A DNA stretch of 40,002 nt from a virus. Made by a program: the position numbers and the translations under genes. The stretch's first letter is position 1, and each line of letters begins with the position of its first letter. The DNA is taken from the IMG/VR virus record IMGVR_UViG_3300033052_000037, positions 1 through 40,002 of that record. One strand, written 5' to 3'. Below the pieces are notes generated by a model that was not told the DNA's origin, made no database searches, and saw only the letters and a list, made by a program, of their open reading frames with translations. This document shows, piece by piece, positions 1-36,745 of the stretch.

Positions 1-239
1 TCCAAACGGCGACCTAGCCCCGGACCAGCTCGACACACATGTCTGCATCCAGTACAAGTTGCCGGGCAAAGACACAGATGGCGAAGATGCACCCGCCGGC
101 CTCTACTGCTGGCTCCAGGAGTACCCGGAGGAAGGTAGCCTCTGCATCGATGCCCCGTGGGCGTTCGGCCCCGAAGACTTCAACCTCCACCGCCACCTCC
201 AGAGGCAGCGCGCCTTCAGCGAACGCAACTTCGGCCCCG
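1..239. repeat. Terminal overlap copy 1, identical to 39764-40002 (circular or terminally redundant genome)
   Basis: Base-by-base comparison of both window ends. The ORF-track peptide at 39777..39959(-) equals the C-terminus of 14..493(-), offset 39,763. Confidence 0.95.
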
Positions 240-499
240 GCATGCGCACCCAGGGCGTGGTGGACCACATCCGCAAAGAGCTGATCGAGGTGCTGGCCAA
301 CCCACAGGATCTGAGCGAGTGGATCGACGTCGCCATCCTGGCGCTCGACGGCGCCTGGCGCACCGGCGCCACGCCGGCGCAGATCATCGCCGCCCTGGTG
401 GCCAAGCAAGACAAGAACGAAGCCCGCAACTGGCCCGATTGGCGCACCGCGCCGCCTGACCAGGCCATTGAGCACGTCCGCACCGGAGAGCAATCATGA
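1..499 (+). CDS. MazG-like / DUF550-type nucleotide pyrophosphohydrolase, 3' part of the wrap-around gene
   Basis: The C-terminal half (GVVDHIRKELIEVLANPQDLSEWIDVAILALDGAWRTG...NEARNWPDW) resembles phage DUF550/MazG-like dNTP pyrophosphohydrolases. Recognised by eye. Confidence 0.55.
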   Translation, partial: PNGDLAPDQLDTHVCIQYKLPGKDTDGEDAPAGLYCWLQEYPEEGSLCIDAPWAFGPEDFNLHRHLQRQRAFSERNFGPGMRTQGVVDHIRKELIEVLANPQDLSEWIDVAILALDGAWRTGATPAQIIAALVAKQDKNEARNWPDWRTAPPDQAIEHVRTGEQS

Positions 500-978
500 G
501 CTGCAGCCACAAACCCCGCAAGGCATACCGCCCGCGCCCCAGCGCCCGTGCTGCCAAGCCCGCACAGGCAGACCGCGAAGAGGTGCTGGGCATCCTTCAA
601 GACGCCATCAAGGCCCTGCGCGAAGGCGTGGCCACCGAGCTGCAGTGGTCCATTGCAGACGGCGCGCTGGAAGTGTCCAAGGCCATTGAGCACCAGGGCA
701 TCGTGCGCGGCCTGGCAGAGCACCTGGCCACCACCAGCACCGCCCTGCTGGCCATCTACGACCGCGCCATGGCCACCGGCACCTGGCGCAGCACCGCCCT
801 GTGGTACTACGAGCTGGACGCGCTGCAGACCTTCCTTGATCTGCACACCTTCCAGGTGCACCAGCTCGGCCGCGCCGAGTTCCTGGCCGCCGTCGACGGC
901 GCCACCAACCAGGTGCGCCGGCAGGGCGGCAATGTCACGGTGGTGCGGGGCGACCTGCAGGAGGTTGCCGCAGCATGA
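496..978 (+). CDS. Hypothetical early protein
   Basis: 160-aa ORF. ATGA overlap with the upstream stop and with the next gene. High-GC third-position pattern. Confidence 0.6.
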   Translation: MSCSHKPRKAYRPRPSARAAKPAQADREEVLGILQDAIKALREGVATELQWSIADGALEVSKAIEHQGIVRGLAEHLATTSTALLAIYDRAMATGTWRSTALWYYELDALQTFLDLHTFQVHQLGRAEFLAAVDGATNQVRRQGGNVTVVRGDLQEVAAA

Positions 979-1733
979 CCACCATCTGCACATCCATGGC
1001 CGCACGCGGGCTGCGCCCGGTGGCCGAGCTGGCACAGAACCGCCAGCATGGCGATCGGCTCCGCTACATGGCGGGTTGCCGCTGCCAGCAATGCCGCGGC
1101 GCCAACACTGCCTATGAACGCGCCCGCGCCCTTGCACGCAAGGCGGGGGAATGGAACGGCCTTGTCAGTGCCGATCAGGCCAGGGCGCACATCGCACACC
1201 TGTCAAGCCGCCATGTCGGCCGCAGGACCATCGGCCAGGTGGCCGACGTGTCAGACACAGTCCTCAGCAAGATCATCTCTGGCGAAAAGACCAAGATCCG
1301 CGCCGCCACCGATCGCGCCATCCTGGCGGTTACCGAGGCAGCAGCTGCAGACCATGCCCTCATCCCCGATGGCCCCACCTGGAAGCTGCTGGACGAACTC
1401 ATCGCCAGCGGCTACACCAAGGCCGCGCTGGCCCAGCAGCTTGGCGCCAAGACACGCGCGCTGCAGATCGGCCGCCACCAGGTGACCGTCAGGAACGCCT
1501 ACGAGGTGCAGCGACTGCATGAGCGCCTGCGCATGGTCCAGGCCGGGCCGAGCCTGCGGCTCATCAACGAGCTGCGTGAGGAAGGCTTCCGCCAGGCCGT
1601 GATCGAGCAACGCGTCGCCGATCTGGCTGCCCAGCTCGGCCTCCCCACGCCAGACCTGACCGTGCGCAACGGCCAAATCCAGGAGCGCGCCGCGCGCCTG
1701 CTTGAGCGTGTACACGCAAATCTGACGGAGTAA
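975..1733 (+). CDS. Hypothetical protein, possibly DNA-binding (GCRCxxCR motif near the N-terminus)
   Basis: 252-aa ORF, ATGA-coupled to the upstream gene. Confidence 0.6.
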   Translation: MTTICTSMAARGLRPVAELAQNRQHGDRLRYMAGCRCQQCRGANTAYERARALARKAGEWNGLVSADQARAHIAHLSSRHVGRRTIGQVADVSDTVLSKIISGEKTKIRAATDRAILAVTEAAAADHALIPDGPTWKLLDELIASGYTKAALAQQLGAKTRALQIGRHQVTVRNAYEVQRLHERLRMVQAGPSLRLINELREEGFRQAVIEQRVADLAAQLGLPTPDLTVRNGQIQERAARLLERVHANLTE

Positions 1734-1770
1734 CGACATGCCACTGCCCTGCCACCAACCGGAGTACACC

Positions 1771-2286
1771 ATGAACGCAATTGAACCCCTGAAACTCACC
1801 CTCCCCACCCTCGGCCACCTGGTCGAAGGCGGCTTCTTCCACGGCGTCTTGCTGATCGACGGCAAGCTCTACGGCGAGGCCACCGGCCCCAAGGCCGACT
1901 GCTTCGTCGAAAACCTGCCCTGGATGAAAACCTACAAGGACGTTCCCGGCGCCACGAGCGACTGGGACGGCTTGGTCAACACGCAGGCGATGGCCAAGGC
2001 AGGCAGCCCGCTGGCCGAAGCCGCGCAGGCCTGCCGCAGCGGCGGCTTCGACGACTGGTATGTGGCTGCACGCGGCGGCCTGCTGCTGCAGTACGGCATC
2101 AAGAAGCTGCTGCCCGAGGCCGAGGCCTTCGAAGAGCGCTTGCACTGGTCCAGCACGCAGTTCTCTCGCTACTACGCCTTCCACCAGCACTTCGACCTCG
2201 GCAGCACCAACACCTTCGACAAGTCCTGGTCTGGTGGTGCGGCGAGGTTCGTCCGCAGATTCCTCCTTGAGTCCTTGATCGCTTGA
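1771..2286 (+). CDS. DGR target protein 1, DUF1566 / C-type-lectin-like fold with C-terminal variable region
   Basis: ATG 1771 is preceded by GGAG. An in-frame ATG at 1738 is also possible. The C-terminus HWSSTQFSRYYAFHQHFDLGSTNTFDKSWSGGAARFVRRF is encoded by VR1. Confidence 0.85.
   Translation: MNAIEPLKLTLPTLGHLVEGGFFHGVLLIDGKLYGEATGPKADCFVENLPWMKTYKDVPGATSDWDGLVNTQAMAKAGSPLAEAAQACRSGGFDDWYVAARGGLLLQYGIKKLLPEAEAFEERLHWSSTQFSRYYAFHQHFDLGSTNTFDKSWSGGAARFVRRFLLESLIA
2155..2262 (+). repeat. DGR variable repeat VR1
   Basis: 108 nt aligned gap-free to TR 3488-3595. There are 11 differences, and every one is at a TR adenine within AAC codons. Confidence 0.9.
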
Positions 2287-2294
2287 GCCCTTTA

Positions 2295-2313
2295 CCCGGC
2301 GCGTAGCGCCGGG
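2295..2313 (+). promoter_or_regulatory. GC hairpin 33 nt downstream of VR1 (8-bp stem CCCGGCGC/GCGCCGGG, loop GTA); candidate DGR target-recognition hairpin and/or terminator
   Basis: Perfect inverted repeat. The same element sits at the same distance after VR2. Confidence 0.7.
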
Positions 2314-2341
2314 CCGATTTTCTTCAACCCCTGGAGCACTC

Positions 2342-2899
2342 ATGAACACTGAAACTACCGCGGCCACGGCCGCATCCATTGCGCACCGCGCGATCAAGCT
2401 GCCGGCCATCGGCACCATGCTGCCTCACCTGAGCGGCGCCTTCTGGGGCGTGCAGCGCGCCCGCCCCAGCTCCGGCCAGGCGGACTACGCCCTGATCGTC
2501 CCGCCCGGCCCCGAGTTCGAGCGCCGCGAGGTGGCCTGGGGCAGCGAGGGCGTGGACGAGCCCGGCGCGGCCTGCCAATGGGACGGCCTGGCCAACACCC
2601 AGGCCCTGCTGGCCAGCGGCAACGATCACCCGATGCTGGCGGATCTCCCGCAAGTGGAAGCCATCGACGGCCTGAGCGGCCTCTACCTGCCTTCGCTGTG
2701 TGAGGGCAAGACCCTTTTCGCCAACGGCTGCGATGCCTTCGACCCGAAGCTCTGGTACTGGCTCAGCACGCAGTTCTCTCGCAACTCCGCCTTCAGCCAG
2801 TACTTCAACCTCGGCAGCACCCTCAACTTCGTCAAGTCCTGGTCTGGTGGTGCGGCGAGGTTCGTCCGCAGATGCTCCCTTGAACTCTTGATTCCTTGA
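2342..2899 (+). CDS. DGR target protein 2, paralogue of target 1 with C-terminal variable region
   Basis: 185-aa ORF with GGAG upstream of the ATG. The C-terminus YWLSTQFSRNSAFSQYFNLGSTLNFVKSWSGGAARFVRRC is encoded by VR2. Confidence 0.85.
   Translation: MNTETTAATAASIAHRAIKLPAIGTMLPHLSGAFWGVQRARPSSGQADYALIVPPGPEFERREVAWGSEGVDEPGAACQWDGLANTQALLASGNDHPMLADLPQVEAIDGLSGLYLPSLCEGKTLFANGCDAFDPKLWYWLSTQFSRNSAFSQYFNLGSTLNFVKSWSGGAARFVRRCSLELLIP
2768..2875 (+). repeat. DGR variable repeat VR2
   Basis: 108 nt aligned to the TR. There are 12 differences at TR adenines, plus one T-to-G change at 2874 at the extreme 3' boundary. Confidence 0.9.
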
Positions 2900-2907
2900 A
2901 CCCTTCA

Positions 2908-2926
2908 CCCGGCGCGCAGCGCCGGG
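2908..2926 (+). promoter_or_regulatory. GC hairpin 33 nt downstream of VR2 (same 8-bp stem, loop GCA)
   Basis: Perfect inverted repeat, paralogous to 2295-2313. Confidence 0.7.
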
Positions 2927-2946
2927 TCGCCACCCATTTTTTGAAC

Positions 2947-3312
2947 ATGGCCCTTCACACCGAACTCCCGATCTACAAGCATGCCTACGGCCTGCTGCGC
3001 CTGTCGCTCGTCGGCAAGGCGAACATGCGGCGCGACTTCAAGCAGTCGCTGGGCACGCGCATCCATGACGAGTGCATCGAGATTCTGTCGCTGATTGCCG
3101 ATGCCAACGCCGCCGGTGACCAGGAACGGCCCGCTGTCCTGCAGGCAATGCTCAGGCGGGTAGGCAAGGTCGAGTTTCTGCTGCGCGTCTGCAACGACGA
3201 GCGGTTGATCCCGACGAAGGTATGGGCCGACGCCATCGCGCTGCTGCAGGCCGTCGGCTCGATGGGTGGCGGGTGGCACAAGTATTCCCGCAAGAAGGCG
3301 TCAGTTGCATGA
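2947..3312 (+). CDS. avd: Accessory variability determinant (Avd-like four-helix-bundle protein)
   Basis: About 121 aa and predicted helical. It has a basic C-terminal tail (WHKYSRKKASVA) and sits immediately upstream of TR and RT. The ORF-track start at 2896 overlaps the target-2 stop, so ATG 2947 is preferred. Confidence 0.75.
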   Translation: MALHTELPIYKHAYGLLRLSLVGKANMRRDFKQSLGTRIHDECIEILSLIADANAAGDQERPAVLQAMLRRVGKVEFLLRVCNDERLIPTKVWADAIALLQAVGSMGGGWHKYSRKKASVA

Positions 3313-4694
3313 AAGCCAAGGTTCTCATGCCCGCACGCCAGTTGAATCTGGACTTGCCCCTGGCCCACGAGGCCACGGATAGGCGCACCACGGATACCGC
3401 TGCCCCAGGGCAGGCACGGTCCGGCGCAGTTTCCGCACTGATCGGCCGTTCTGGCCTTCGGCGCGGCGACGTGACAAGCAAGCACCGACGCAGTTCTCTC
3501 GCAACAACGCCTTCAACCAGAACTTCAACAACGGCAACACCAACAACAACGACAAGTCCTGGTCTGGTGGTGCGGCGAGGTTCGTCCGCAGATTCAAACG
3601 CACCGTGTTCGTTCGAGGCCCTGGTGCAGGCCTACAAAGATTGCCGCGCCAACAAGCGCAACACCGCCAGCGCCCTGCTCTTCGAGCAGGCGCTGGAGGC
3701 CAACCTCTGGGCGCTTTACCAGCGCCTGATCGACGGCAGCTACCGGCCCGGCCGCAGCATCTGCTTCGTGGTGACGCGACCCAAGCCGCGCGAGGTGTGG
3801 GCGGCCGAATTCACCGACCGCATCGTGCACCACCTGTTGTACAACCACATCGCGCCGCGCTTCCACGCCAGTTTCGACGCCGGCAGCAGCGCCTGCATCC
3901 CGGGCCGCGGCACGCTGTACGCGGCCAATGTGCTGGCCGGCGCGGCCCGCTCTATCACCCAGAACTGGAGCCGCCCAGCGCACTACCTCAAGATGGATCT
4001 GGCCAACTTCTTCGTGGCCATCAGCAAGCCCATCCTGCTGGCCCAGTTGGCCAAACGTGTGCACGAACCCTGGTGGTTCGATCTGGCTCGTACCATCCTA
4101 TTTCATGACCCGCGCGCCGACGTCGAGCTGCGCGGCAGCCCGGCCAAGCTGGCCCTGGTACCGCCCCACAAGAGCTTGTTCAATGCGCCGGCGGATACCG
4201 GCCTGCCCATAGGGAACCTGAGCAGCCAGTTCTTTGCCAACGTCCACCTGGACGCGCTGGACCAGCACATCAAGCACCAGCTGCGCGCCCGGCACTACAT
4301 GCGCTATGTGGACGACTTCATCCTGCTGCACGATTCGCCCCAGTGGCTCAACCAGGCACGCTCAGACATCGAGGCCTGGCTCCCCGAGCACCTGGGCGCC
4401 TGCGTCAACCCCAGCAAGACCATCCTGCAGCCCGTCGATCGCGGCATCGACTTCGTTGGCCACGTCATCAAGCCGTGGCGCCGCACCACACGGCCACGCA
4501 CCCTGGCCACGGCCCTGCGCCGCCTGGAGCACATGCCGGCCGAAGACCTGCACACCACCGGCAACAGCTACCTGGGCCTGCTGCGCCAGGCCACACACAG
4601 CCACGCCGACCAGGCGAAGGTAGCCAGGCTGCTGCGCCGGCGCGGGCATGCGGTAGCTGGGGACTTGAGCAAGATTTACAGGAGGACCACATGA
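3309..4694 (+). CDS. DGR reverse transcriptase (start uncertain: ATG 3309 coupled to the avd stop, or in-frame GTG 3567/3570/3624)
   Basis: Motifs LPIGNLSSQFFANVHLDALD and YMRYVDDFILLH. The N-terminal FEALVQAYKDCRANKRN region is of the type seen in the BPP-1 Brt N-terminus. There is no ATG between the TR and the conserved domain. Confidence 0.85.
   Translation: MKAKVLMPARQLNLDLPLAHEATDRRTTDTAAPGQARSGAVSALIGRSGLRRGDVTSKHRRSSLATTPSTRTSTTATPTTTTSPGLVVRRGSSADSNAPCSFEALVQAYKDCRANKRNTASALLFEQALEANLWALYQRLIDGSYRPGRSICFVVTRPKPREVWAAEFTDRIVHHLLYNHIAPRFHASFDAGSSACIPGRGTLYAANVLAGAARSITQNWSRPAHYLKMDLANFFVAISKPILLAQLAKRVHEPWWFDLARTILFHDPRADVELRGSPAKLALVPPHKSLFNAPADTGLPIGNLSSQFFANVHLDALDQHIKHQLRARHYMRYVDDFILLHDSPQWLNQARSDIEAWLPEHLGACVNPSKTILQPVDRGIDFVGHVIKPWRRTTRPRTLATALRRLEHMPAEDLHTTGNSYLGLLRQATHSHADQAKVARLLRRRGHAVAGDLSKIYRRTT
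3488..3595 (+). repeat. DGR template repeat (TR)
   Basis: It carries 10 AAC codons in the VR reading frame. The invariant 3' part AAGTCCTGGTCTGGTGGTGCGGCGAGGTTCGTCCGCAGA is shared with both VRs. Confidence 0.9.
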
Positions 4695-5020
4695 CCTTCC
4701 CCGCCGATCTGGCCAAGCTCTACGTCGAGCATGCTGGCCAACGCTACGAACCCAGCAACGGCACAGAGGGCGAGATCTTCATGTCCGAATGGTGCCGCCA
4801 GTGCGCCCGCGATCGCGCCATGCGCGAGGGCGAGCCCGAGACAGAGTGCGACGACGACGAACTCTGCACCATCATCGCCGCCAACTTCGCCGGCGAGGCC
4901 AAGGAATGGGTCTACGGCACCGACGGCCAACCCATGTGCACCGCCTTCGTCAAGGCCAGCAGCGAGATCCCGGCACCGCGGTGCGAGCACACGCCGGACA
5001 TGTTCGGAGACAACCCATGA
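4691..5020 (+). CDS. Cys-rich hypothetical protein, translationally coupled to the RT
   Basis: AGGAGGA RBS. ATG 4691 overlaps the RT stop (ATGA). 109 aa with CxxC plus further Cys residues. Confidence 0.65.
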   Translation: MTFPADLAKLYVEHAGQRYEPSNGTEGEIFMSEWCRQCARDRAMREGEPETECDDDELCTIIAANFAGEAKEWVYGTDGQPMCTAFVKASSEIPAPRCEHTPDMFGDNP

Positions 5021-5301
5021 CAGCGCCCACCGAACTCACCCGTCAGCAGCTATGCGCCGCGCTGGGTATCAGCGAAAGTACCGTTCGACGCCTGGAGCTT
5101 GATGGGCTACCATTCACGCCCGTCGGCCTTCGGGCCAAACGCTACAACCTGGCCGAAGTGAAGGCCTGGCTCAAGACGCATCAACCATGTCAACCTGGCA
5201 AGATAAACAAGGCCGTCGGCACATCGGCGTTATGGTCCGCGGCCAACGAGTTCACCGCATCCTGCCGCAAGGCGCATCTGCGAGTGATGCCAAGCGCGTA
5301 G
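5017..5301 (+). CDS. xis: Excisionase / AlpA-like HTH DNA-binding protein
   Basis: LCAALGISESTVRRLELDGLPFTPVG..KRYNLAEVKAWL is typical of excisionase-family HTH proteins. ATGA-coupled to the upstream gene. The 3' end overlaps the int start. Confidence 0.65.
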   Translation: MTAPTELTRQQLCAALGISESTVRRLELDGLPFTPVGLRAKRYNLAEVKAWLKTHQPCQPGKINKAVGTSALWSAANEFTASCRKAHLRVMPSA

Positions 5302-6194
5302 AGGCCGAGATCCGCGCCGAGTTGGAGGCCCCGGCACAGCGCGCCACATCGGCCGGCGACGTGCCCATGACCGTGGCACTCGCCCTCTACACCCGCCACG
5401 CCGAGCACCTGAGCAGCGCCAGCACCTCCGAGCACCACGCACGCCGCCTGGGCCCTTGGGCCGAGCGCTACCAGGCCAGCCAGGCGCGCGAGTTCGCCGC
5501 CCACGTCATCAAGGACATGCGCGGGCACTACGCCCCCGCCACCATCAACCGCAGCCTGGCCACCGCCAAGAAAGGCCTGGCGCTCGCCTGGGAGCAGGGC
5601 CTCACGCCAGAGAACTACGGCCTGCGCATCAAGGGCGTGCCCGTCAACAACAAGCGCGAAGTATTCCTCAGCGTCGACCAGGTGCGCGAGATCGCCAGCC
5701 ACTGCACCGAGCAGGCCCAGGCCGCCATCTGGGCTGCACTGCTCACAGGCGCCCGCCGTGGTGAGCTGGTGCAGATCCGCCAGGAACACATCGGCCGCGA
5801 CGAGATCACCATCCCGGCCAGCCATACCAAGACCAAGCGCAGCAAGGTCGTGCCCATCATCCCGGCCCTGCGGCCGTGGCTCAAGTACTTTCCCCTGCAA
5901 CTCAAGGCCGACGGCATCAAGACTGCATGGCGCCGTGCCCGTGTGGCTGCCGGCATGGAGCACGTCAACTTTCACGACCTGCGCCACAGCTGCGCCAGCA
6001 TCCTGCTCAGCCTGGGCGTTGACCTGTACACCATAGGCAAGATCCTTGGCCACGCCAACGTGCAGACCACCCAGCGCTACGCCCACCTGCAGATCGAGCA
6101 GCAGCGAGCCGCCCTCAACAAGCTCAGCAACCTGGTGCAACCGCCGCCCAAAAAGCAAAAATCCCGCGCCACCAAGAAGGCAGCGCGGGCATGA
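5187..6194 (+). CDS. int: Tyrosine integrase
   Basis: 335 aa. C-terminal catalytic signature HDLRHS...LGHANVQTTQRYAH, and an N-terminal arm-binding-like domain. Confidence 0.9.
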   Translation: MSTWQDKQGRRHIGVMVRGQRVHRILPQGASASDAKRVEAEIRAELEAPAQRATSAGDVPMTVALALYTRHAEHLSSASTSEHHARRLGPWAERYQASQAREFAAHVIKDMRGHYAPATINRSLATAKKGLALAWEQGLTPENYGLRIKGVPVNNKREVFLSVDQVREIASHCTEQAQAAIWAALLTGARRGELVQIRQEHIGRDEITIPASHTKTKRSKVVPIIPALRPWLKYFPLQLKADGIKTAWRRARVAAGMEHVNFHDLRHSCASILLSLGVDLYTIGKILGHANVQTTQRYAHLQIEQQRAALNKLSNLVQPPPKKQKSRATKKAARA

Positions 6195-6230
6195 TTTACA
6201 CCGGAAATTACACAGGCTTGTGATTTACAC
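6194..6230 (+). repeat. Three direct copies of A(T/A)TTACAC (6194-6201, 6206-6213, 6223-6230): putative integrase arm-type sites, int-proximal arm
   Basis: Read directly. Two more copies lie on the other side of the core. Confidence 0.6.
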
Positions 6231-6244
6231 AGACCCGAGAAAAG

Positions 6245-6283
6245 AAAAAACCCACGTAAGTCGTTGATTTACGTGGGTTTTTT
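6245..6283. terminator. Bidirectional rho-independent terminator
   Basis: An A6 run, a 9-bp stem CCCACGTAA/TTACGTGGG with a 9-nt loop, then a T6 run. Confidence 0.8.
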
Positions 6284-6285
6284 GT

Positions 6286-6330
6286 TGGTGGGCGATACAT
6301 GGATCGAACATGTGACCCCTGCAGTGTGAA
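6286..6330 (-). other. Putative attP core: 3' portion of a tRNA-Val(CAC)-like gene (anticodon loop to CCA)
   Basis: The minus strand reads TTCACAC-TGCAG-GGGTC-ACATG-TTCGATC-CATGT-ATCGCCC-A-CCA, i.e. anticodon loop, stem, variable loop, T-arm, acceptor 3' strand and CCA. No matching 5' acceptor or D-arm lies upstream. Confidence 0.6.
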
Positions 6331-6413
6331 TGCTATTGACGATCAAGCCGAACCCTCGTTTCCCTCTGGAGAACGCGGCCCTGGCGAGCCTGAAATGGTG
6401 CTGATCGGCAGCA

Positions 6414-6432
6414 AATTACACAGGAATTACAC
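6414..6432 (+). repeat. Two direct copies of AATTACACAGG (6414-6421, 6425-6432): putative arm-type sites, distal arm
   Basis: Same motif and orientation as the copies at 6194-6230. Confidence 0.6.
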
Positions 6433-6645
6433 AGGCCCGCACACCCGCCGCGCCAACTCCAGCACCTCCCGCAGCCGCGCCAGCACGTTGCTCAACTGCT
6501 GCCGGCTCACGCCGGCGCTGTCGGCCGCCACGCTGGGCGGCAGGCCGTCGACCAGCACCAGGCGGGCGCTGGCCATGGCGGCGCCGGCGCGGATGCTGGT
6601 CAGCGCCACCAGGGCGTCGAACTGGTCGGGCGTGAGGGTTCTCAT
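6427..6645 (-). CDS. Small HTH protein (KorA/TrfB-like repressor fold suspected)
   Basis: 72 aa from ATG 6645. HTH-like segment SVAADSAGVSRQQLSNVLARL. The longer ORF-track start at 6744 overlaps the upstream gene. Confidence 0.5.
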   Translation of the reverse strand: MRTLTPDQFDALVALTSIRAGAAMASARLVLVDGLPPSVAADSAGVSRQQLSNVLARLREVLELARRVCGPV

Positions 6646-7070
6646 AGCTCGCAGAACTCCCACGCGCTGCACATGCCCACGCTGACCTCGCCCAGCGCCT
6701 GCAGTTCGCGCACCACGGGCGCGGCCTCGGCGGTGCCCAGCCACTGGCGCACGAAGAACGCGGCGTGCGCTCCGCCCTCTGCCACGGCGTCGGCCACCTG
6801 CTCGGGCGCCACGTCCGCCACATAGCGCAGCGCCACCACCTTGCCACCCATGATGGCTGCCAGCGCCAAGCCCGCGCCGTGGTACTGGCTAGCCAGGTCG
6901 TCGGTGATTTTATGAACCTTCATGCTTATCCCTCCGCGCTCCACGCGCTCAATGATCCAGTCGCCCAGCTTCATGCCGGCAGCCCGGCTCTCACGCACCC
7001 AGCGGGCCTTGAGCGCCGCTGAGACGTGCAGGTGAATAAGGGCCTCGCGGCCCTCGGTGTTGTTACTCAT
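6642..7070 (-). CDS. Hypothetical protein with ribbon-helix-helix-like N-terminus
   Basis: ATG 7070 overlaps the upstream stop. The N-terminus is REALIHLHVSAALKARWVRESRAAGMKLGDWIIERV. Confidence 0.5.
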   Translation of the reverse strand: MSNNTEGREALIHLHVSAALKARWVRESRAAGMKLGDWIIERVERGGISMKVHKITDDLASQYHGAGLALAAIMGGKVVALRYVADVAPEQVADAVAEGGAHAAFFVRQWLGTAEAAPVVRELQALGEVSVGMCSAWEFCEL

Positions 7071-7338
7071 CAATCTCGACGTATTCGGTGTCAATGCCCG
7101 CAGCACTGACCGTGAAGGTCTGCGTGCGGCCGTAGATGCTGTCCCAGCTCTTGAGTTCGATGCCGGCGTCGTTGCCTTCGCTCAGCGAGAAATCGGCATG
7201 CTGCGCCCAGGCACGCAGCATGTCCATGGTGCTCTTGGACGTGCCCTCGTACAACTCGGGGGTCTTGTGGTTGGCGCGCAGGAAGGCGCGGATTTCTTCG
7301 AGGCCGGCTGCGTTGATGGTCTTGATGACTGCTTGCAT
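7063..7338 (-). CDS. Hypothetical protein (first gene of the accessory cassette)
   Basis: ATG 7338 with a GGAG RBS. The ORF-track start at 7398 would coincide with the predicted transcription start. Confidence 0.5.
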   Translation of the reverse strand: MQAVIKTINAAGLEEIRAFLRANHKTPELYEGTSKSTMDMLRAWAQHADFSLSEGNDAGIELKSWDSIYGRTQTFTVSAAGIDTEYVEIDE

Positions 7339-7405
7339 GATGTTGCTCCGATCAGGATTCCCGGAGCCGCCGGGGCGGTGGACAGTGCGCCTGTCCATGA
7401 ATCAA

Positions 7406-7433
7406 ATAATACACTGTTTTTAATGTATTGCAA
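7406..7433 (-). promoter_or_regulatory. Sigma70-like promoter TTGCAA-16 nt-TATTAT driving the 3-gene cassette
   Basis: It lies in a conspicuously AT-rich intergenic island. The spacer contains the inverted repeat AATACA..TGTATT. Confidence 0.55.
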
Positions 7434-7467
7434 GAAATTTTTTACCGTTCGTCGGAAATTTTGGACG

Positions 7468-7503
7468 AAAAAAAGCCCTCCACCCCGTGAGGAGTGGAGG
7501 GCT
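7468..7503 (-). terminator. Rho-independent terminator ending the late/lysis operon
   Basis: 9-bp stem GCCCTCCAC/GTGGAGGGC followed on the minus strand by a U7 run. Confidence 0.75.
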
Positions 7504-7674
7504 GGAGATCCGGGTAACCTGTAGAACCCCCGGAAGGAGACAACTGCAAATCAGGCTGATCGCTCAGCCATGGCCAAATCGATGCACCTGGCCACGGCGC
7601 GGGCTTCGAGCAGACGGCCCGCCTTCAACAGGCGGGCACGGTAAGCGCGCATGCGTATGGCAGCGCGCTCGATT

Positions 7675-7908
7675 TCATTGGCCGTCGACGATGCCGGCGG
7701 CGGTGCGGCACTGGTAGTACTGGCTGGCAACCTCGGCCAGCTTGTCGGTGGTGGCGCCGAAGCTGTCATCGCGCAGCGGCGTCAGGCGGGGGCAGTTGGC
7801 CACCACCAGTGCGCTCGGCTCTGCCGCCTGTGAGGGCTGCATTGAGGAGGCGCAGCCCGTCAGGGCTGTGGCGGCAATCAACGTACACAGTGTTGTTAAG
7901 AATTTCAC
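7675..7908 (-). CDS. o-spanin (Rz1-like outer-membrane lipoprotein)
   Basis: GTG start with an AGGAGA RBS. Signal peptide plus lipobox LTGC. It begins inside the i-spanin gene in another frame and extends past its stop. Confidence 0.75.
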   Translation of the reverse strand: MKFLTTLCTLIAATALTGCASSMQPSQAAEPSALVVANCPRLTPLRDDSFGATTDKLAEVASQYYQCRTAAGIVDGQ

Positions 7909-8116
7909 GCTGGATCTCCTGCTGGATGGTGGTTTGCAGCGGCTTCATCTTGGCGATGGCGTTGGCTGCCAGCTTGCCGGCCTCTTCGCCGGCGCGGCGC
8001 ACGTCTTCCTGGCGGTCGGCGTCGGTGGCTTTCTGGTGGTCAACACCCAGGCGGAAACCGCCCCAGCCAGCGCCCATGACGGCCACCAGCGCCGTGATGA
8101 TGAGGTAGGGGTTCAT
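7766..8116 (-). CDS. i-spanin (Rz-like)
   Basis: N-terminal TM segment (LIITALVAVMGAGWGG) and a charged, helical periplasmic part. Located downstream of the endolysin. Confidence 0.7.
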   Translation of the reverse strand: MNPYLIITALVAVMGAGWGGFRLGVDHQKATDADRQEDVRRAGEEAGKLAANAIAKMKPLQTTIQQEIQREILNNTVYVDCRHSPDGLRLLNAALTGGRAERTGGGQLPPPDAAAR

Positions 8117-9545: not shown

Positions 9546-10031
9546 TCAAACCGGCCAGGCCAGCGCCGGCAGCTCGGCCTCGAAGTCGGCAATGTCTGCT
9601 GGAATTTGCCCGGCTCCGTTGGTGGGCCAATTGCCTGCCAGCGTCCGTGCCTCGATCAATTCCGACACAGCCCACGTCTCGGCTGTCTTTAGCACCAGGT
9701 ACTCGCACTCCGCTCTGTAGCGAAAGACGATGTTCTGCAAATCGGCCGGCAAGGTCGCGATTTGCGCATCCGTAAGGCTCTTGTACTTTTCCAGAGAGTC
9801 CACGTTCGTATAACGGCGAGTTGCGGCGAAGTCATCAAGTCGCTTCTGGATCTGGTTGCTCAACCTGGCCACTCGCTGTTCCGTTGCAATGCCGGCCTCT
9901 TGGGCTGCCACAGTGGGCCAGTCGATCTCGATTGCAACGCCACTGGCATCCCAGGCTTGAATATCGCTCTCATCATCGCCATTGACGACGACAGCCAGCG
10001 GATAGGCTTTTCTTACGGCTTCGTGGTTCAT
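9546..10031 (-). CDS. Hypothetical protein downstream of the tail fibre (possible fibre assembly/chaperone)
   Basis: 161-aa ORF, ATGA-type overlap with the fibre gene, visibly lower GC. Confidence 0.5.
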   Translation of the reverse strand: MNHEAVRKAYPLAVVVNGDDESDIQAWDASGVAIEIDWPTVAAQEAGIATEQRVARLSNQIQKRLDDFAATRRYTNVDSLEKYKSLTDAQIATLPADLQNIVFRYRAECEYLVLKTAETWAVSELIEARTLAGNWPTNGAGQIPADIADFEAELPALAWPV

Positions 10032-11020
10032 GCTTGAATCTCCAGGAGTGTGAGCGTGGAAATTCCGCGCCCACTGTCTGCGCTGTCAGCATCGTTCTGC
10101 GACCGGTTTACATATGCAGTTGTTCCGTCTTGACCTGTCATCGCCTGAACCTTGTAGGTGGTAGCGGAAGTTGTTGCTGGAGAGTCACGGAAGTTTGCTG
10201 TAGCCGAGCCTGAAACGTAAGACGCATTGCCAGTGACTGTGATGGTTGACCTTGTGCGAGAACCGGCAGCATCACCGATCCCGATTGCTGTGCTGCCACA
10301 AACAAGTTGTGCATGGGCGCCAACAGTTGATTGCCCGTTTAGTGCGATCGACAGAATTGCAAGAATCTTGTTTGAAGCACTGCTCGGTGTTATTGACGCA
10401 GACAGACCAGTAACGTCCGTCATCGTAGTGGACGATGTACTCCAAGTGTCTGTTTTTGTGACCGAAACAACCTGTACAACCTGGCCTGAAAGATAGGTTG
10501 ATCCGGACGGGGGCAATGGATTGATCAGAATCCAGTCCGTCCCGTCATCCACGAAAATGCAGCGCTGGCCGGCCACCAGCGTGGTGTCCACCTTGGTGCC
10601 GGCGCTGTTGTAAGCCTTCACGCTTTTCGCAGCGTCTCCGTTCACTGCCATGGTGGTGGCCGCGCCGCCGTTGCCGGTGACAATGATGGCGTCCACCACT
10701 TTCACGCCGGAAGTGGCAGGCGACTGGGTGGCCACGATGGCGGTGCCGGTGCCGGTGATGGTGGCCAGGGTGGCGGTCTGTTTCTGGACTGAAATCAACG
10801 CCCAGGTGCTCAGCTTGCAGATGGTGACCCAGTCGCTGTTAGCCGCGTTGCGTTGCTTCAATAGATCATTGGCTGTGTCCGGCCACAACATGTAGGCATA
10901 GGTTGGTGACGGCGCTGTTGCCCCGCTGTTGAGGCTGGCGAGGGCGAGCGCCATGGCGTTGAGGTCCGCCAGGAAGGAGGAACCGTCCTGATCGGCAATC
11001 ACGTAATCATGTTGCGACAT
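10028..11020 (-). CDS. Tail fibre / receptor-binding protein
   Basis: The N-terminus MSQHDYVIADQDGSSFLADLNAMALALASLNSG is typical of phage fibre anchors. The C-terminal half is Ser/Thr/Gly-rich and beta-like. Confidence 0.7.
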   Translation of the reverse strand: MSQHDYVIADQDGSSFLADLNAMALALASLNSGATAPSPTYAYMLWPDTANDLLKQRNAANSDWVTICKLSTWALISVQKQTATLATITGTGTAIVATQSPATSGVKVVDAIIVTGNGGAATTMAVNGDAAKSVKAYNSAGTKVDTTLVAGQRCIFVDDGTDWILINPLPPSGSTYLSGQVVQVVSVTKTDTWSTSSTTMTDVTGLSASITPSSASNKILAILSIALNGQSTVGAHAQLVCGSTAIGIGDAAGSRTRSTITVTGNASYVSGSATANFRDSPATTSATTYKVQAMTGQDGTTAYVNRSQNDADSADSGRGISTLTLLEIQA

Positions 11021-11022
11021 GG

Positions 11023-11430
11023 TCAGCCTCCCTTACCGCCGATGCGGCCAATGGAGTTGACGAACTGCTGATCCCACTGCGCCAACCTGGGTGGCAACTG
11101 GCCAGAGCGGGCGGCGAGCTGGACGAGTTCGTGCACTGCTTCCTCCAGGCTCACGCTGCCAGGCTGGGTGATGCGCTGGCTGCGCGGAAGCGGGTCAAAC
11201 CGCTGTTGCGCGGCATTCCAGCGGTAGGCGCCGGGCGTCAGGTCGCAACACTCCGGCACTGCCACATGTTCTGGCGTCAGGCTGGCGCGGTTGATGACAT
11301 GCACGCCCCAATAGATGCCATTGACATCGAGATCAGCCACGCTAACCGTGGACGGCAAATCAGGCGTCTCTTCAGGCGGCTCCTGGGGGGTGGAATTTTC
11401 TTGCGTGTTCACGGCTGGGTCCTTTCTCAA
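11023..11430 (-). CDS. Hypothetical tail-associated protein (start uncertain: TTG 11430 or GTG 11412)
   Basis: ORF lying between the J-like gene and the fibre gene. Confidence 0.45.
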   Translation of the reverse strand: MRKDPAVNTQENSTPQEPPEETPDLPSTVSVADLDVNGIYWGVHVINRASLTPEHVAVPECCDLTPGAYRWNAAQQRFDPLPRSQRITQPGSVSLEEAVHELVQLAARSGQLPPRLAQWDQQFVNSIGRIGGKGG

Positions 11431-15023: not shown

Positions 15024-15610
15024 AGCACTTCCTCCAGGTCGCAAGCCCAGTCCAGCACCGGGCCGCCCGCCAGGCTCCACTCGTGCTGGGGCGCTGCATA
15101 TGCCACCGTGAACGGCACATTGCTCACCACCAGCGGCTCGTTGTCGGCCACGTCGGCGTAGAGCGCGGGCTCGATGCTGAGGGTGGCCTGGCCGCTGCCG
15201 TCGGTCACCACATCGGCCGTGAGCATGTAGACCTTGTTGTGGCCGTTGAACTTGACGAACTCCCCTGCCTTCATGGCGGTGACGGAGTTGGCCCAGCCGT
15301 CCGTGGAGATGCTGCGGCCGCTGGCCGTGGCACCACTGGCCAGCGGCGTGCCACTGACGGCGCTTTGAGGCTGCCCCAGCACCGCGGGCACGAAGGTAAA
15401 GCTGCCGTACTGCCCGCGTTGCGAGATGGCATGGGCCATCAGCTCGGCCATTTCGGCCCGCGAGCGGTTGCTGTACTCCAGCCGGAAGCCCCAGCGCTGC
15501 ACACTGCCGCCACGCACCTGCCGCTTGAGCGAGTGCGTGACGGACACCCGCGCAGGCTGCAGCGATCGCACCAGCAGCCGGTCTGGCGATGATGTAGTGG
15601 GGAAGCTCAT
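15020..15610 (-). CDS. Minor / distal tail protein (lambda M-like position)
   Basis: 196-aa ORF immediately after the tape measure gene. Confidence 0.55.
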   Translation of the reverse strand: MSFPTTSSPDRLLVRSLQPARVSVTHSLKRQVRGGSVQRWGFRLEYSNRSRAEMAELMAHAISQRGQYGSFTFVPAVLGQPQSAVSGTPLASGATASGRSISTDGWANSVTAMKAGEFVKFNGHNKVYMLTADVVTDGSGQATLSIEPALYADVADNEPLVVSNVPFTVAYAAPQHEWSLAGGPVLDWACDLEEVL

Positions 15611-33942: not shown

Positions 33943-34326
33943 ATGCTGACAATTGCCGAAATTCGCCGAGCCAGGCTCGAACAACTCATCACCCGATACG
34001 AAGGAACTGTTGCCAATCTGAACGAGGCGCTGGGCCTGGAAAGGACCTCTGCCAAACTGTCAAGAATTCGCAATGCAAACACGCGAAATGAGCGCGAAGG
34101 CAAGACCTATCAGATGGGTGACGCCTTGGCGCGCGAGATTGAAGACAAACTAAACCTCGAACGTGGGTGGATGGACTCCCCACCTGGCTACGAACTTATG
34201 GCTAATACCAGAATCCAGCACGTGCTAAAAGTGATGGAGTCCATGCCGGAATACAAAATCGACCAAGCCATCAAAATCATTGATACGATTGCTGAACCAA
34301 CCCCAAGACGCAGCAATGGAGACTAA
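33943..34326 (+). CDS. CI-like repressor (HTH only, no S24 peptidase domain)
   Basis: 127 aa. EIRRARLEQLI...VANLNEALGLERTSAKLSRIRN resembles a phage CI HTH domain. Divergent from the cro-like gene. Confidence 0.65.
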   Translation: MLTIAEIRRARLEQLITRYEGTVANLNEALGLERTSAKLSRIRNANTRNEREGKTYQMGDALAREIEDKLNLERGWMDSPPGYELMANTRIQHVLKVMESMPEYKIDQAIKIIDTIAEPTPRRSNGD

Positions 34327-34388
34327 GGCCCCAAACAGCGCCGCAGTCCTTCCATTTCGGCGGCGCGGTCGATGACTCAGGAGAATCC

Positions 34389-34880
34389 ATGAGTAGGAAG
34401 TTGATTGCAATCTGTATTGCTGTCCTCGCAATATCTGGCTGCGCCACCAGTGAAAAATATTCACTCAAAGAGCCGAATTCCGATCAAGCCGCCTTCATTG
34501 AGTCATCGTTTGAGCGTGACAGCACATTTGTCTGGATACGCATCGTCCCCGTTACGATCGATGACCAATATGTCGCAGTCTCAGGCTGGACCGGGCTCCC
34601 GGAGGAAAAACTCAAGGTTCCCAGCGGCGCACGCAAAATCGGTGTTGAATTGACATTCAACCGTGGATTTGGAAGCACTCAATTGGTGAGCCAGATCACC
34701 ATTGAGGCAAATCTCGCGATTGGCGCGCACTACAAGCTGCAAGGGCGTGTCTTAGGCACACAGGCCGAGGCATGGCTGAATGACGCCTCAGGCAACTCTG
34801 CAAGCACGACAGGTCGCTCGGCACTGGGTTCTTCAACCGCCTCCCAGGCTCCTTTATTCATACCCATCCCCACAAGGTAA
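34389..34880 (+). CDS. Lipoprotein (moron; candidate superinfection-exclusion or lysogenic-conversion factor)
   Basis: AGGAGA RBS, signal peptide with lipobox LAISGC, visibly lower GC than the flanks. Confidence 0.75.
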   Translation: MSRKLIAICIAVLAISGCATSEKYSLKEPNSDQAAFIESSFERDSTFVWIRIVPVTIDDQYVAVSGWTGLPEEKLKVPSGARKIGVELTFNRGFGSTQLVSQITIEANLAIGAHYKLQGRVLGTQAEAWLNDASGNSASTTGRSALGSSTASQAPLFIPIPTR

Positions 34881-34895
34881 GCTCTCGCATAAATA

Positions 34896-34935
34896 TTTCC
34901 CCAAAGGGTATTGACATGTATTCCCCCAAGGGTAA
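34896..34935. promoter_or_regulatory. Two operator-like sites bracketing the rightward early promoter (34896-34911, 34920-34935)
   Basis: TTTCCCCAAAGGGTAT and ATTCCCCCAAGGGTAA share the core of the three sites at 33869-33930. Confidence 0.55.
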
Positions 34936-34938
34936 ATA
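34911..34938 (+). promoter_or_regulatory. Rightward early promoter TTGACA-16 nt-TAAATA
   Basis: Consensus -35 element and an AT-rich -10 element, about 45 nt upstream of GTG 34982. Confidence 0.6.
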
Positions 34939-34981
34939 ATCCGTTCCACCCCGCCACCTCAAGGCGGGAAAGGAGCGGAAA

Positions 34982-35314
34982 GTGCAGACATCCACACCCC
35001 GGCGCCCGGTCTACACGGGCTTCCTGCGCGGCTTTCTTCGGGATTCGACCAATGCTGAGACTCTGCTCCAGCACTGGCACGGCCTGCGCAATTTGAAGTG
35101 CCTCCACCATGATCCCGCCCAGCTAGACGCCGTGCTGGAAGGTCACTGTGCGCTGCTCAACAGCGCCCTCTACCGCGCCGAAATGCTGCGCGAACTGGGC
35201 CAACTGCTCTTCGCACATGCAGACACCACCTACTTCCGCCACTGCCCTGCCGTTGACGCCTTCGGCGTGCAGACGCCGCCCGCTGCAGGCGTGCGCGAAG
35301 GGGCGCCGGCATGA
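34982..35314 (+). CDS. Hypothetical early protein
   Basis: GTG start with an AAGGAG RBS, 110 aa. Confidence 0.55.
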   Translation: MQTSTPRRPVYTGFLRGFLRDSTNAETLLQHWHGLRNLKCLHHDPAQLDAVLEGHCALLNSALYRAEMLRELGQLLFAHADTTYFRHCPAVDAFGVQTPPAAGVREGAPA

Positions 35315-36543: not shown

Positions 36544-36729
36544 ATGGAACCCATCGTCTCCATCGAGCGCATCAAGCGCGAGGCCGAACACAGCGCCGCC
36601 CTGTACAGCGACGTCAACGCCGCCTGCCCCTACCCGTTCTTCAGCGGCGCCGGCCGCCTGTTCAAGCAGTTCTTCCTGCAGGCGCGTGCGCGGCTGCAGG
36701 CATCCAGCAGCACCCCTGCCCAACCCTGA
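36544..36729 (+). CDS. Hypothetical small protein
   Basis: 61-aa ORF in series with its neighbours. Confidence 0.4.
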   Translation: MEPIVSIERIKREAEHSAALYSDVNAACPYPFFSGAGRLFKQFFLQARARLQASSSTPAQP

Positions 36730-36745
36730 CCCCACGGAGACAACC

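What the first reader, a model, noticed from the sequence alone, without database searches (positions are those of the whole stretch)
1771..2899. DGR targets are two tandem small cytoplasmic-looking lectin-fold proteins in the early operon, not tail proteins
- Both targets (171 and 185 aa) lack any visible signal peptide, lipobox, TM segment or fibre-anchor domain.
- They lie about 8-9 kb around the circle (via int/attP and the lysis cassette) from the tail-fibre gene 10028-11020, which carries no VR.
- They sit at the distal end of the plus-strand early operon that starts at the operator-flanked promoter 34911-34938 and ends with xis/int.
- Classic phage DGRs such as BPP-1 Mtd diversify the receptor-binding protein in the late tail module. 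Here the diversified binders appear to be co-expressed with replication and recombination functions.
Inference: they may bind variable intracellular or host-surface ligands (for example a counter-defence or host-takeover role), or attach to virions as accessory adhesins by an unknown route. Two paralogous targets served by one TR is also a less common layout.
Basis: inference. Interest (0 to 1): 0.8.

Follow-up and report, generated by a model that had tools for sequence, protein, structure and literature searches.

The report
Phage retroelement diversifying paired early lectin-fold proteins
A temperate phage uses a mutagenic reverse-transcriptase cassette to hypervary two small sugar-binding-fold proteins that are encoded with its early and integration genes rather than its tail genes, so this form of targeted evolution may serve something other than host-receptor recognition.

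Summary
The window is a circular 39.8-kb temperate siphovirus genome carrying a complete diversity-generating retroelement (DGR): two target genes (1771-2286, 2342-2899), avd, a template repeat (TR) and a reverse transcriptase (RT). All 11 VR1 mismatches to the TR, and 12 of 13 for VR2, lie at TR adenines. No third VR exists, so the tail genes are not targets.

Both targets are stand-alone DUF1566/Lcl_C-type C-type-lectin folds (AF2 pLDDT 95.6 and 90.5). Neither has a signal peptide, lipobox or anchor domain. They lie at the distal end of a PL-like plus-strand operon, just before xis and int.

The layout is not unique. It recurs in Curvibacter prophages, in most of 80 IMG/VR phage loci, and in cultured phages (Burkholderia Magia, Pseudomonas Haboob). 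Neighbours are repressor, recombination, methylase and integrase genes, never tail genes. In 50 of 58 loci there are two or three targets, and the pair is ancient and heterotypic. Homologues without a DGR are early genes in phages D3, PMG1 and Medea1; the PA5oct homologue lies in an early-transcribed region.

The targets are therefore most likely non-structural early binders. The proposed counter-defence role is untested, and virion attachment is not excluded. This is a new variant of a known kind, of moderate to high interest.

The parts
34866..34940 (+). Promoter-like site (TTGACA-18-AATAAT, 34911-34940) with three operator-like 14-nt repeats (34866, 34897, 34921). Presumed start of the PL-like plus-strand early operon that runs through the window junction to int.
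   Evidence: pattern matches only, function inferred
59..499 (+). 3' part of the dATP/dGTP pyrophosphohydrolase (PF04447) gene. The gene spans the circular junction (starts near 39594).
496..978 (+). 160-aa protein of unknown function. It sits directly upstream of target 1 in the Curvibacter prophages (67% identity).
975..1733 (+). 252-aa protein (phrog_1590). It is absent at this place in the Curvibacter prophages.
1771..2286 (+). DGR target 1: stand-alone DUF1566/Lcl_C-type C-type-lectin-fold protein, 171 aa (alternative start 1738).
2155..2262 (+). VR1: 11 mismatches to the TR, all at TR adenines.
2295..2313 (+). GC-rich hairpin downstream of VR1 (DGR target-recognition type; also scores as terminator-like).
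2342..2899 (+). DGR target 2: divergent paralogue of target 1, 185 aa, same fold.
2768..2875 (+). VR2: 13 mismatches to the TR, 12 at TR adenines and one T>G at the 3' edge.
2908..2926 (+). GC-rich hairpin downstream of VR2, near-identical to the one after VR1.
   Evidence: read from sequence
2947..3312 (+). avd, the accessory variability determinant (121 aa from ATG 2947; the ORF is open from 2896).
3488..3595 (+). Template repeat (TR), 108 nt with ten AAC codons. It lies inside the 5' extension of the RT reading frame.
3309..4694 (+). DGR reverse transcriptase ORF. Its ATG overlaps the avd stop (ATGA). RT homology starts at about 3600.
4697..5020 (+). 107-aa Cys-rich ORF. It is 84% identical to a DUF8270 protein at the same place in a Curvibacter prophage.
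5017..5301 (+). Excisionase-like HTH protein.
5187..6194 (+). Tyrosine integrase, the last gene of the plus-strand arm.

Best explanation
This is an intact DGR carried by a lambda-like temperate siphovirus of a Curvibacter-like (Comamonadaceae) host.

**Shown.**
- Avd, the TR RNA template and the RT lie directly downstream of two tandem target genes. Both C-terminal VRs differ from the TR essentially only at adenines, and each VR is followed by a GC hairpin. One TR therefore rewrites both genes by mutagenic retrohoming.
- Each target is nothing more than a DUF1566/Lcl_C-type C-type-lectin domain. The variable codons sit in its last strands. There is no signal peptide, lipobox, TM segment or fibre-anchor domain.
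- The cassette occupies the distal end of the PL-like early-left operon, just before xis-int. This placement, and the ordered heterotypic pair of targets, are conserved across many temperate phages with unrelated virion modules.

**Inferred.**
- The two proteins and the DGR machinery are made early after infection or induction, from the repressor-controlled promoter.
- They are non-structural proteins that act inside the infected cell, possibly as a heteromeric pair.
- As hypervariable binders, they most plausibly neutralise or sequester variable host defence proteins or proteins of competing phages.
- Early expression would link each genome's VR variant directly to its own replication success.
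For: **The DGR itself.** Anatomy and adenine bias. Avd and RT identity.

**Fold.** AF2 pLDDT is 95.6 and 90.5, and the best PDB match for both is the Legionella Lcl C-terminal domain 8q4e. The family profile matches 8q4e at E=9.8e-8.

**No secretion signals.** None was seen in any of the 88 family members. Benler 2018 reports the same for phage DGR targets (PMC6199706).

**Operon.** Promoter-like site plus operator-like repeats, with + strand continuity to int.

**Conserved placement.**
- Curvibacter prophages and another phage type.
- 62 of 80 IMG/VR loci have Avd and RT immediately downstream.
- Neighbour census over 64 dereplicated loci. Downstream: integrase 20, DNA methylases 11, serine recombinase 3. 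Upstream: S24 repressor 9, YqaJ 7, RecT 4, ERF 2, ParB 3. No tail or head family is among the 25 commonest.
- The same layout occurs in Magia, described as a myophage (PMC7883833), and in D3-like Haboob.

**Homologues without a DGR RT.**
- In PMG1 the homologue is the first gene after cI and an annotated promoter; D3 orf68 is its annotated equivalent.
- Medea1 and Aurca01 carry tandem pairs next to ERF, exonuclease and SSB genes.
- PA5oct EST35_0104 lies in the terminal-repeat block. That block is described as early genes, with only gp39, gp48 and gp51 structural.

**Pair and activity.**
- 73 of 78 VR-trimmed proteins best-match the same position in another locus.
- 50 of 58 loci have 2 or 3 adenine-biased VRs.
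- Near-identical scaffolds carry different VRs in nature.
Against: - No expression, localisation or binding data exist for any member. Timing is inferred from gene order and a consensus promoter match.
- The DUF1566 fold is also the C-terminal tip of long phage proteins with collagen repeats, S74 chaperone domains or 'tail fiber' names (PHROG 4245 profile of 583 positions). A few family members carry N-terminal beta-rich extensions (P0082, P0086). A receptor-binding role is therefore natural for this fold.
- There is no hit to any defence or counter-defence model.
- Absence of a signal peptide was judged by hydropathy only.
- The PA5oct homologue is distant (34% identity), and equating its locus tag with a gp number is an assumption.
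- The link to methylase and Lar-like neighbours is only guilt by association.
Confidence: 0.5

Rival explanations
1. The two small lectin-fold proteins are accessory virion adhesins, that is receptor-binding or matrix-binding subunits. They dock non-covalently on the tail tip or fibre, as the separate gp38 adhesin does on T2-type fibres. The DGR switches tropism as in BPP-1. Their genes merely sit outside the late module.
For: - All experimentally understood phage DGRs diversify receptor-binding proteins (PMC5758913, PMC8144416).
- The DUF1566 domain is the C-terminal tip of long fibre-like phage proteins.
- Some relatives have N-terminal beta-rich extensions that could be anchors.
- The conserved N-terminal 'LPxxG' segment could be a docking peptide.
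Against: - The cassette travels with the early/lysogeny arm in phages with different tails (this siphovirus; Magia, described as a myophage). It is never next to tail genes in 64 dereplicated loci.
- The non-DGR homologue in PMG1 (D3 orf68 equivalent) is the first gene after cI and an annotated promoter.
- The PA5oct homologue lies in the early block and is not among that block's listed structural proteins.
- No anchor domain exists; the whole protein is the lectin domain.
Confidence: 0.25
2. The proteins are lysogen-expressed, prophage-encoded immunity factors. A pre-diversified repertoire of intracellular binders recognises proteins of superinfecting phages and protects the lysogen, as hypothesised for DGRs in prokaryotic immunity.
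For: - The position at the int-proximal end of the prophage is typical of lysogenic-conversion and defence cargo.
- The hypothesis is in the literature (PMC10053308).
- In PMG1 the homologue follows cI on the same strand.
Against: - There is no room for, and no match to, a separate promoter. The gap upstream of target 1 is 37 nt, and no promoter-like site was found in 1-7200.
- The genes lie behind a promoter-like site flanked by operator-like repeats, so they should be repressed in the lysogen (inferred).
- The proteins have no effector domain, and there is no PADLOC hit.
- Homologues occur in virulent jumbo phages.
Confidence: 0.12
3. The proteins are made in the cytoplasm but act only after lysis, as free extracellular lectins. 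They might mask receptors on cell debris, or bind polysaccharide matrix, to aid the spread of progeny.
For: - The closest solved relative is a lectin-type fold from an extracellular adhesin, Lcl.
- A signal peptide is not needed if release is by lysis.
Against: - No precedent was found in the searches made here.
- Early rather than late placement is unexplained.
- There is no genotype-phenotype linkage for a freely diffusing protein, so selection for DGR variants would be weak (inference).
Confidence: 0.08

Closest known systems
Bordetella phage BPP-1 DGR (mtd-avd-TR-brt)
   Same: Same mechanism and parts: target with a C-terminal VR in a C-type-lectin fold, Avd, a TR with AAC codons, an RT (33% identical), adenine-specific mismatches, and a GC hairpin after the VR.
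   Different: - Mtd is a 381-aa (from general knowledge) tail-fibre protein with N-terminal anchoring domains. Here there are two stand-alone 171- and 185-aa lectin domains.
- The sub-fold is DUF1566/Lcl_C.
- The genes lie in the early-left arm next to xis-int.
Legionella pneumophila DGR target LdtA / DUF1566 'category d' (CLec2) targets of Wu et al. 2018
   Same: Same VR-bearing domain family (DUF1566). Wu et al. note that about half of this category are short, DUF1566-only proteins, and that 13% of DGRs have two targets (PMC5758913).
   Different: [quoted passage not shown] The proteins here and their 88 relatives have no signal peptide or lipobox, and they are phage early-region genes.
DGR cassettes of cultured temperate phages Burkholderia Magia, Pseudomonas Haboob, Cruim01, phPA-G, LPPA56 and Shewanella vB_Sb_QDWS
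   Same: RTs are 59-66% identical. In the two inspected, the cassette follows recombination or regulator genes in Magia and the cI repressor in Haboob, then small lectin target(s), Avd and RT. In Magia xis-int follows, with lysis genes on the other strand.
   Different: The hosts and virion modules differ. These cassettes have only been noted in annotation. The Magia announcement mentions 'relatively short reading frames' as targets (PMC7883833), and the Haboob paper does not mention the DGR.
Pseudomonas phage D3 Orf68 / PMG1_00068, Medea1 gp71-gp72, PA5oct EST35_0104 (non-diversified small DUF1566 proteins)
   Same: Same protein family (30-36% identity), same small size, no signal peptide, early-region placement, sometimes as a tandem pair.
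   Different: None of these phages appears among the RT matches (Pseudomonas records 6: Cruim01, SC_8_H2H8, phPA-G, Haboob, LPPA56, Bise), so they are presumably not hypermutated. Function is unknown.
Cellular DGRs with non-surface (regulatory) targets, e.g. in cyanobacteria
   Same: A precedent that DGR targets need not be surface or virion proteins (PMC7517822, title and abstract seen).
   Different: Those are chromosomal, multidomain signalling proteins. Here the targets are binder-only domains in a phage early operon.

Membership tests
Diversity-generating retroelement (DGR) | TR/VR repeat pair whose mismatches fall at TR adenines | tested here: met
   VR1 has 11 of 11 and VR2 has 12 of 13 mismatches at TR adenines. 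The TR has ten AAC codons.
Diversity-generating retroelement (DGR) | DGR-type reverse transcriptase adjacent to the TR | tested here: met
   PF00078 at 6.4e-15 and phrog_1423 at 5.8e-110. It is 33% identical to BPP-1 Brt and 59-66% identical to phage DGR RTs.
Diversity-generating retroelement (DGR) | Accessory protein Avd | tested here: met
   phrog_3206 'Avd protein of DGR' at 5e-24. NF033474 at 3.6e-10 and PF22296 at 1.2e-7, both below their curated cut-offs.
Diversity-generating retroelement (DGR) | Invariant 3' end of the VR (IMH) that differs from the TR just downstream, plus a GC-rich inverted repeat after the VR | tested here: met
   A 40-nt block is identical in VR1, VR2 and the TR, and the sequences diverge right after it. 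Hairpins lie at 2295-2313 and 2908-2926. Function in homing was not tested.
Diversity-generating retroelement (DGR) | Evidence of activity (different VRs on near-identical scaffolds) | tested here: met
   Shown for close relatives, not for this contig itself. P0007-P0012 and P0002/P0003 differ mainly in the VR. More than 110 adenine-biased VRs were found in 53 loci.
DUF1566 / Lcl_C (PF07603) C-type-lectin-like domain | Significant match to the Pfam model | tested here: inconclusive
   There was no direct hit at E<=0.1 for either protein. Most homologues carry precomputed PF07603 hits, and the family profile matches the Lcl C-terminal domain 8q4e at 9.8e-8.
DUF1566 / Lcl_C (PF07603) C-type-lectin-like domain | Fold match to a solved member | tested here: met
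   Foldseek top hit is 8q4e for both models (E=1.8e-5 and 2.1e-3). The next hits are the B. ovatus fimbrial tip 4eps and snake C-type lectins.
Mtd-type tail-fibre receptor-binding protein | N-terminal fibre-anchoring domains and a gene inside the tail module | tested here: not met
   The whole 171- and 185-aa chain is the lectin domain. The genes lie 7-9 kb from the tail fibre gene, on the other strand. No tail families are among the neighbours in 64 loci.
Surface-displayed bacterial DGR targets (LdtA/TvpA type) | Signal peptide or lipobox for export | tested here: not met
   No N-terminal hydrophobic segment or lipobox Cys was found in the two proteins or in 88 homologues. This rests on hydropathy and inspection only; SignalP was not available.
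Virion structural protein | Presence in purified particles | not testable with these tools
   The only indirect evidence is the PA5oct homologue. It lies in the early block gp34-gp105, whose structural members are listed as gp39, gp48 and gp51 (PMC7318152; locus tag).
Known anti-phage defence or counter-defence proteins | Match to a curated model | tested here: not met
   PADLOC gave no hit for the targets, Avd or the flanking small ORFs. No counter-defence library was available.

The most novel reading that the evidence does not exclude
This phage lineage may use a DGR to run an intracellular 'antibody-like' system. A conserved heterotypic pair of lectin-fold binders, analogous to two chains, would be hypermutated and expressed from the early operon, so that some progeny genomes neutralise whatever variable defence protein or rival-phage protein the next host carries. 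That would be the first counter-defence or intracellular role for a phage DGR.
Probability: 0.3. Interest if true: 0.9.

Novelty: new variant of a known kind. Interest (0 to 1): 0.6.

Why it matters
Phage DGRs are taught as tropism-switching devices that act on tail fibres. Yet surveys have left most phage DGR targets as 'function unknown' (PMC6199706, PMC8144416).

Here a large, coherent class of those unknowns is tied to the early/lysogeny arm of temperate phages, independent of tail type:
- two or three small DUF1566 targets without signal peptides, in fixed order upstream of Avd-TR-RT;
- non-diversified relatives that sit in early-gene regions of other phages.

If these proteins act inside the cell, targeted hypermutation would be serving the phage-host arms race at the level of immunity or takeover, not adsorption. 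The scaffold would also be a natural, compact, cytoplasm-compatible binder library.

The question is directly testable, because cultured phages with the same cassette exist (Magia on B. cenocepacia; Haboob, phPA-G and LPPA56 on P. aeruginosa; Cruim01 on P. syringae).

Tried and rejected
- **Direct family scans of both targets.** Pfam and NCBIfam gave nothing at E<=0.1. Family assignment came only through homologues, PHROG 4245 and structure.
- **Megablast of 1-8000 against phages.** It found only a 71%-identical RT stretch, so no close cultured relative exists at the DNA level.
- **The search for related loci with the broad alignment A1.** It failed for lack of a conserved stretch. A narrower alignment, A2, worked.
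- **PADLOC.** No hit for the targets or flanking ORFs.
- **Literature.** A search for DUF1566 + phage + early returned nothing relevant. The PA5oct supplements (virion MS table) are not held, so gp104's absence from the virion rests on the main text only. The Haboob paper does not mention the DGR.
- **The 107-aa ORF after the RT as a cassette component.** Rejected. It is conserved only in one Curvibacter prophage group.
- **L010 as a DGR-less copy of the layout.** Rejected. Its '98-aa ORF' reads like a truncated Avd (my reading of the sequence), and an uncalled 1.2-kb gap follows. I did not check the gap for an RT.
- **tRNA-linked attP.** No tRNA was found in the window.
Full report
**What is in the window**

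The 40,002-base window has a 239-bp terminal direct repeat (1-239 equals 39764-40002). It is therefore a circular 39,763-bp genome, and a PF04447 dNTP-pyrophosphohydrolase gene spans the junction.

Gene content is that of a lambda-like temperate siphovirus.
- On the minus strand lie a cII-like activator, a primase/helicase, a Q-like regulator, a tape-measure protein (15607-17841), a J-like central fibre protein (11427-14009), a tail fibre protein (10028-11020), an endolysin and spanins.
- On the plus strand lie a repressor-like gene and one further ORF. A promoter-like site follows at 34911-34940 (TTGACA-18-AATAAT), embedded in three copies of a 14-nt operator-like repeat.
- From that site a continuous run of plus-strand genes crosses the junction and ends with an excisionase-like gene and a tyrosine integrase at 5187-6194.

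**The DGR is real and complete**

- Two ORFs, 1771-2286 (171 aa) and 2342-2899 (185 aa), each end in a 108-nt repeat. A third copy lies at 3488-3595, between avd and the conserved part of the reverse transcriptase.
- Taking the third copy as the template, VR1 differs at 11 positions and VR2 at 13. All but one boundary position are template adenines, mostly in ten AAC codons.
- The last 40 nt of the repeat are identical in all three copies and occur nowhere else in the window, against 0 expected.
- Each VR is followed by a near-identical GC-rich hairpin, at 2295-2313 and 2908-2926.
- Avd (best start 2947) matches PHROG 3206 and NF033474. The RT matches PHROG 1423 at 5.8e-110 and BPP-1 Brt at 33% identity.
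- The RT reading frame starts at an ATGA overlap with the avd stop (3309), and the TR lies in its 5' extension.
- No VR exists in any tail gene.

**What the targets are**

- Neither protein hits Pfam or NCBIfam directly.
- Both match the C-terminal 180 positions of PHROG 4245. Most of their 88 database homologues carry PF07603 (DUF1566/Lcl_C).
- AlphaFold2 models are confident (pLDDT 95.6 and 90.5). For both, the best solved match is the Legionella Lcl C-terminal domain, followed by a Bacteroides fimbrial tip protein and snake C-type lectins. The family profile also finds Lcl by sequence.
- The whole chain is the domain. There is no N-terminal hydrophobic segment, lipobox or extra domain in these two proteins or in the family.
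- The two targets are divergent paralogues: 46% identity over 126 residues, much of it the shared VR.

**The placement is conserved, not accidental**

- In Curvibacter prophages the order is ParB-like, PF04447, 168-aa protein, target 1, target 2, Avd, RT, small ORF(s), integrase, then host genes.
- An unrelated P22-like temperate phage contig has two DUF1566 targets, Avd and RT in its repressor-side operon, upstream of a methylase and the integrase.
- A scan of IMG/VR returned 144 relatives. Of the 80 loci kept, 62 have Avd and RT immediately downstream on the same strand.
- Among 58 loci with both Avd and RT, 38 have two and 12 have three DUF1566 genes whose 3' ends match the local TR with adenine-biased mismatches.
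- I made a Pfam census of the largest ORFs within 6 kb, over 64 dereplicated loci (150 ORFs scanned on each side).
  - Downstream: integrase (20), DNA methylases (11), DUF5131 (6), serine recombinases (3).
  - Upstream: S24 repressors (9), YqaJ (7), DUF2303 (7), RecT (4), ERF (2), ParB (3).
  - No tail or head family appears among the 25 commonest on either side.
- Cultured phages show the same layout.
  - Burkholderia phage Magia is described as a myophage because it has baseplate and tail-sheath genes. Its order is exonuclease, RecT, ATPase, regulator, terminator, 'lectin fold' target, ORF, Avd, RT and further ORFs, then excisionase and integrase, with lysis genes on the other strand (PMC7883833).
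  - The D3-like Pseudomonas prophage Haboob has cI, a glycosyltransferase, two DUF1566 genes, Avd, RT, a methylase, then Bet and a nuclease.

**The family also exists without a DGR, in early-gene regions**

- tblastn finds homologues in 29 Pseudomonas phage records. Only five of these also appear among the phages with a DGR-type RT.
- In PMG1 (and, by the record's own annotation, D3 orf68) the homologue is the first gene after cI, a terminator and an annotated promoter.
- In Medea1 and Aurca01 a tandem pair follows ERF, exonuclease and SSB genes and precedes methyltransferases.
- In the virulent jumbo phage PA5oct the homologue (EST35_0104) lies in the long terminal repeat. The published RNA-seq and proteomics describe most genes in the gp34-gp105 block as highly transcribed early genes, and name only gp39, gp48 and gp51 there as structural proteins. 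Equating the locus tag with a gp number is my assumption.

**The pair is ancient and ordered**

I trimmed the VR-bearing C-termini and compared the proteins across loci.
- 73 of 78 proteins have their best match in another locus at the same position, first with first and second with second.
- Partners within a locus are barely similar.
- Near-identical scaffolds from different samples carry different VRs, so the elements appear active in nature.

**Interpretation**

- Shown: a working-looking DGR rewrites two (elsewhere up to three) binder-only lectin domains that lack export signals. Their genes travel with the early-left/lysogeny arm across phages with different virion architectures.
- Inferred: they are expressed early from the repressor-controlled promoter and act inside the infected cell.
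- Hypervariation only pays where the ligand is variable. The most plausible ligands for an early cytoplasmic binder are host defence proteins or proteins of competing phages. Early expression would couple each genome's variant to its own success. Frequent methylase neighbours, and a Lar-like zinc-ribbon domain fused in frame to one relative (P0050), fit a counter-restriction neighbourhood, but this is only association.
- I put about 0.5 on the non-structural intracellular reading.
- I put about 0.25 on an accessory-adhesin reading. The same fold tips long fibre-like phage proteins.
- Smaller weights go to lysogen-expressed immunity and to a post-lysis extracellular role.

**Novelty**

- Already recorded: DGRs with short DUF1566-only targets, multi-target cassettes, and signal-less phage targets of unknown function (PMC5758913, PMC6199706, PMC8144416).
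- I did not find described in the searchable literature: (a) the systematic early-arm placement; (b) the link to non-diversified early-region genes of D3-like and jumbo phages; (c) the conserved heterotypic pairing.
- This is a new variant of a known kind. It gives a clear, testable question in cultured systems.

Noticed in passing
window 1-239 and 39764-40002: An exact 239-bp terminal direct repeat. The contig is a circular genome of 39,763 bp, and a PF04447 dNTP-pyrophosphohydrolase gene spans the junction.
   Followed up: yes
window 3309-3600: The RT reading frame starts at an ATGA overlap with the avd stop and runs through the TR. The template repeat is therefore inside a roughly 100-codon N-terminal extension of the RT ORF. 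Relatives also show long RT ORFs of 436-463 aa.
   Followed up: partly
window 2295-2313: The GC hairpin after VR1 is followed by a T-rich run and scores as an intrinsic-terminator-like site. It could attenuate transcription between the two targets.
   Followed up: no
P0050 and P0031 (homologues): Two relatives are called as in-frame fusions. One has a Lar-like restriction-alleviation zinc ribbon (PF14354) and the other a LexA-type DNA-binding domain (PF01726) in front of a normal DUF1566 protein that keeps its own internal start. They are either real cytoplasmic fusions or upstream genes that lost their stop codons.
   Followed up: partly
L023, L024, L029, L034, L049, L061, L064, L089 (IMG/VR loci): A third, non-adjacent DUF1566 gene 2-7 kb upstream in the same operon also carries an adenine-biased VR matching the local TR.
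   Followed up: partly
window 975-1733: A 252-aa gene (phrog_1590, weak HNH-like N-terminus) is inserted between the conserved 160-aa gene and target 1, relative to the Curvibacter prophages.
   Followed up: partly
window 10001-11000 and 34001-35000: G+C drops to 57% at the tail fibre gene and to 53% at the immunity/promoter region, against about 65% elsewhere. This suggests a swapped fibre module and an AT-rich control region.
   Followed up: no
window 34866-34934: Three copies of TTCCCCnAAGGGTA lie around the -35 element and spacer of the promoter-like site. They are candidate repressor operators.
   Followed up: partly
phage records OK094664.1 and OP650936.1: 'Shewanella phage vB_Sb_QDWS' and 'Hujiaoplasma phage zrk29-1' (attributed to a Tenericutes host) have the same length (47,902 bp) and identical RT match statistics. 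They may be the same genome deposited under two very different hosts.
   Followed up: no
window 36686-37336: An early-operon gene matches a PHROG annotated as cysteine dioxygenase (phrog_4786, 4e-38), an unusual function for a phage early gene.
   Followed up: no
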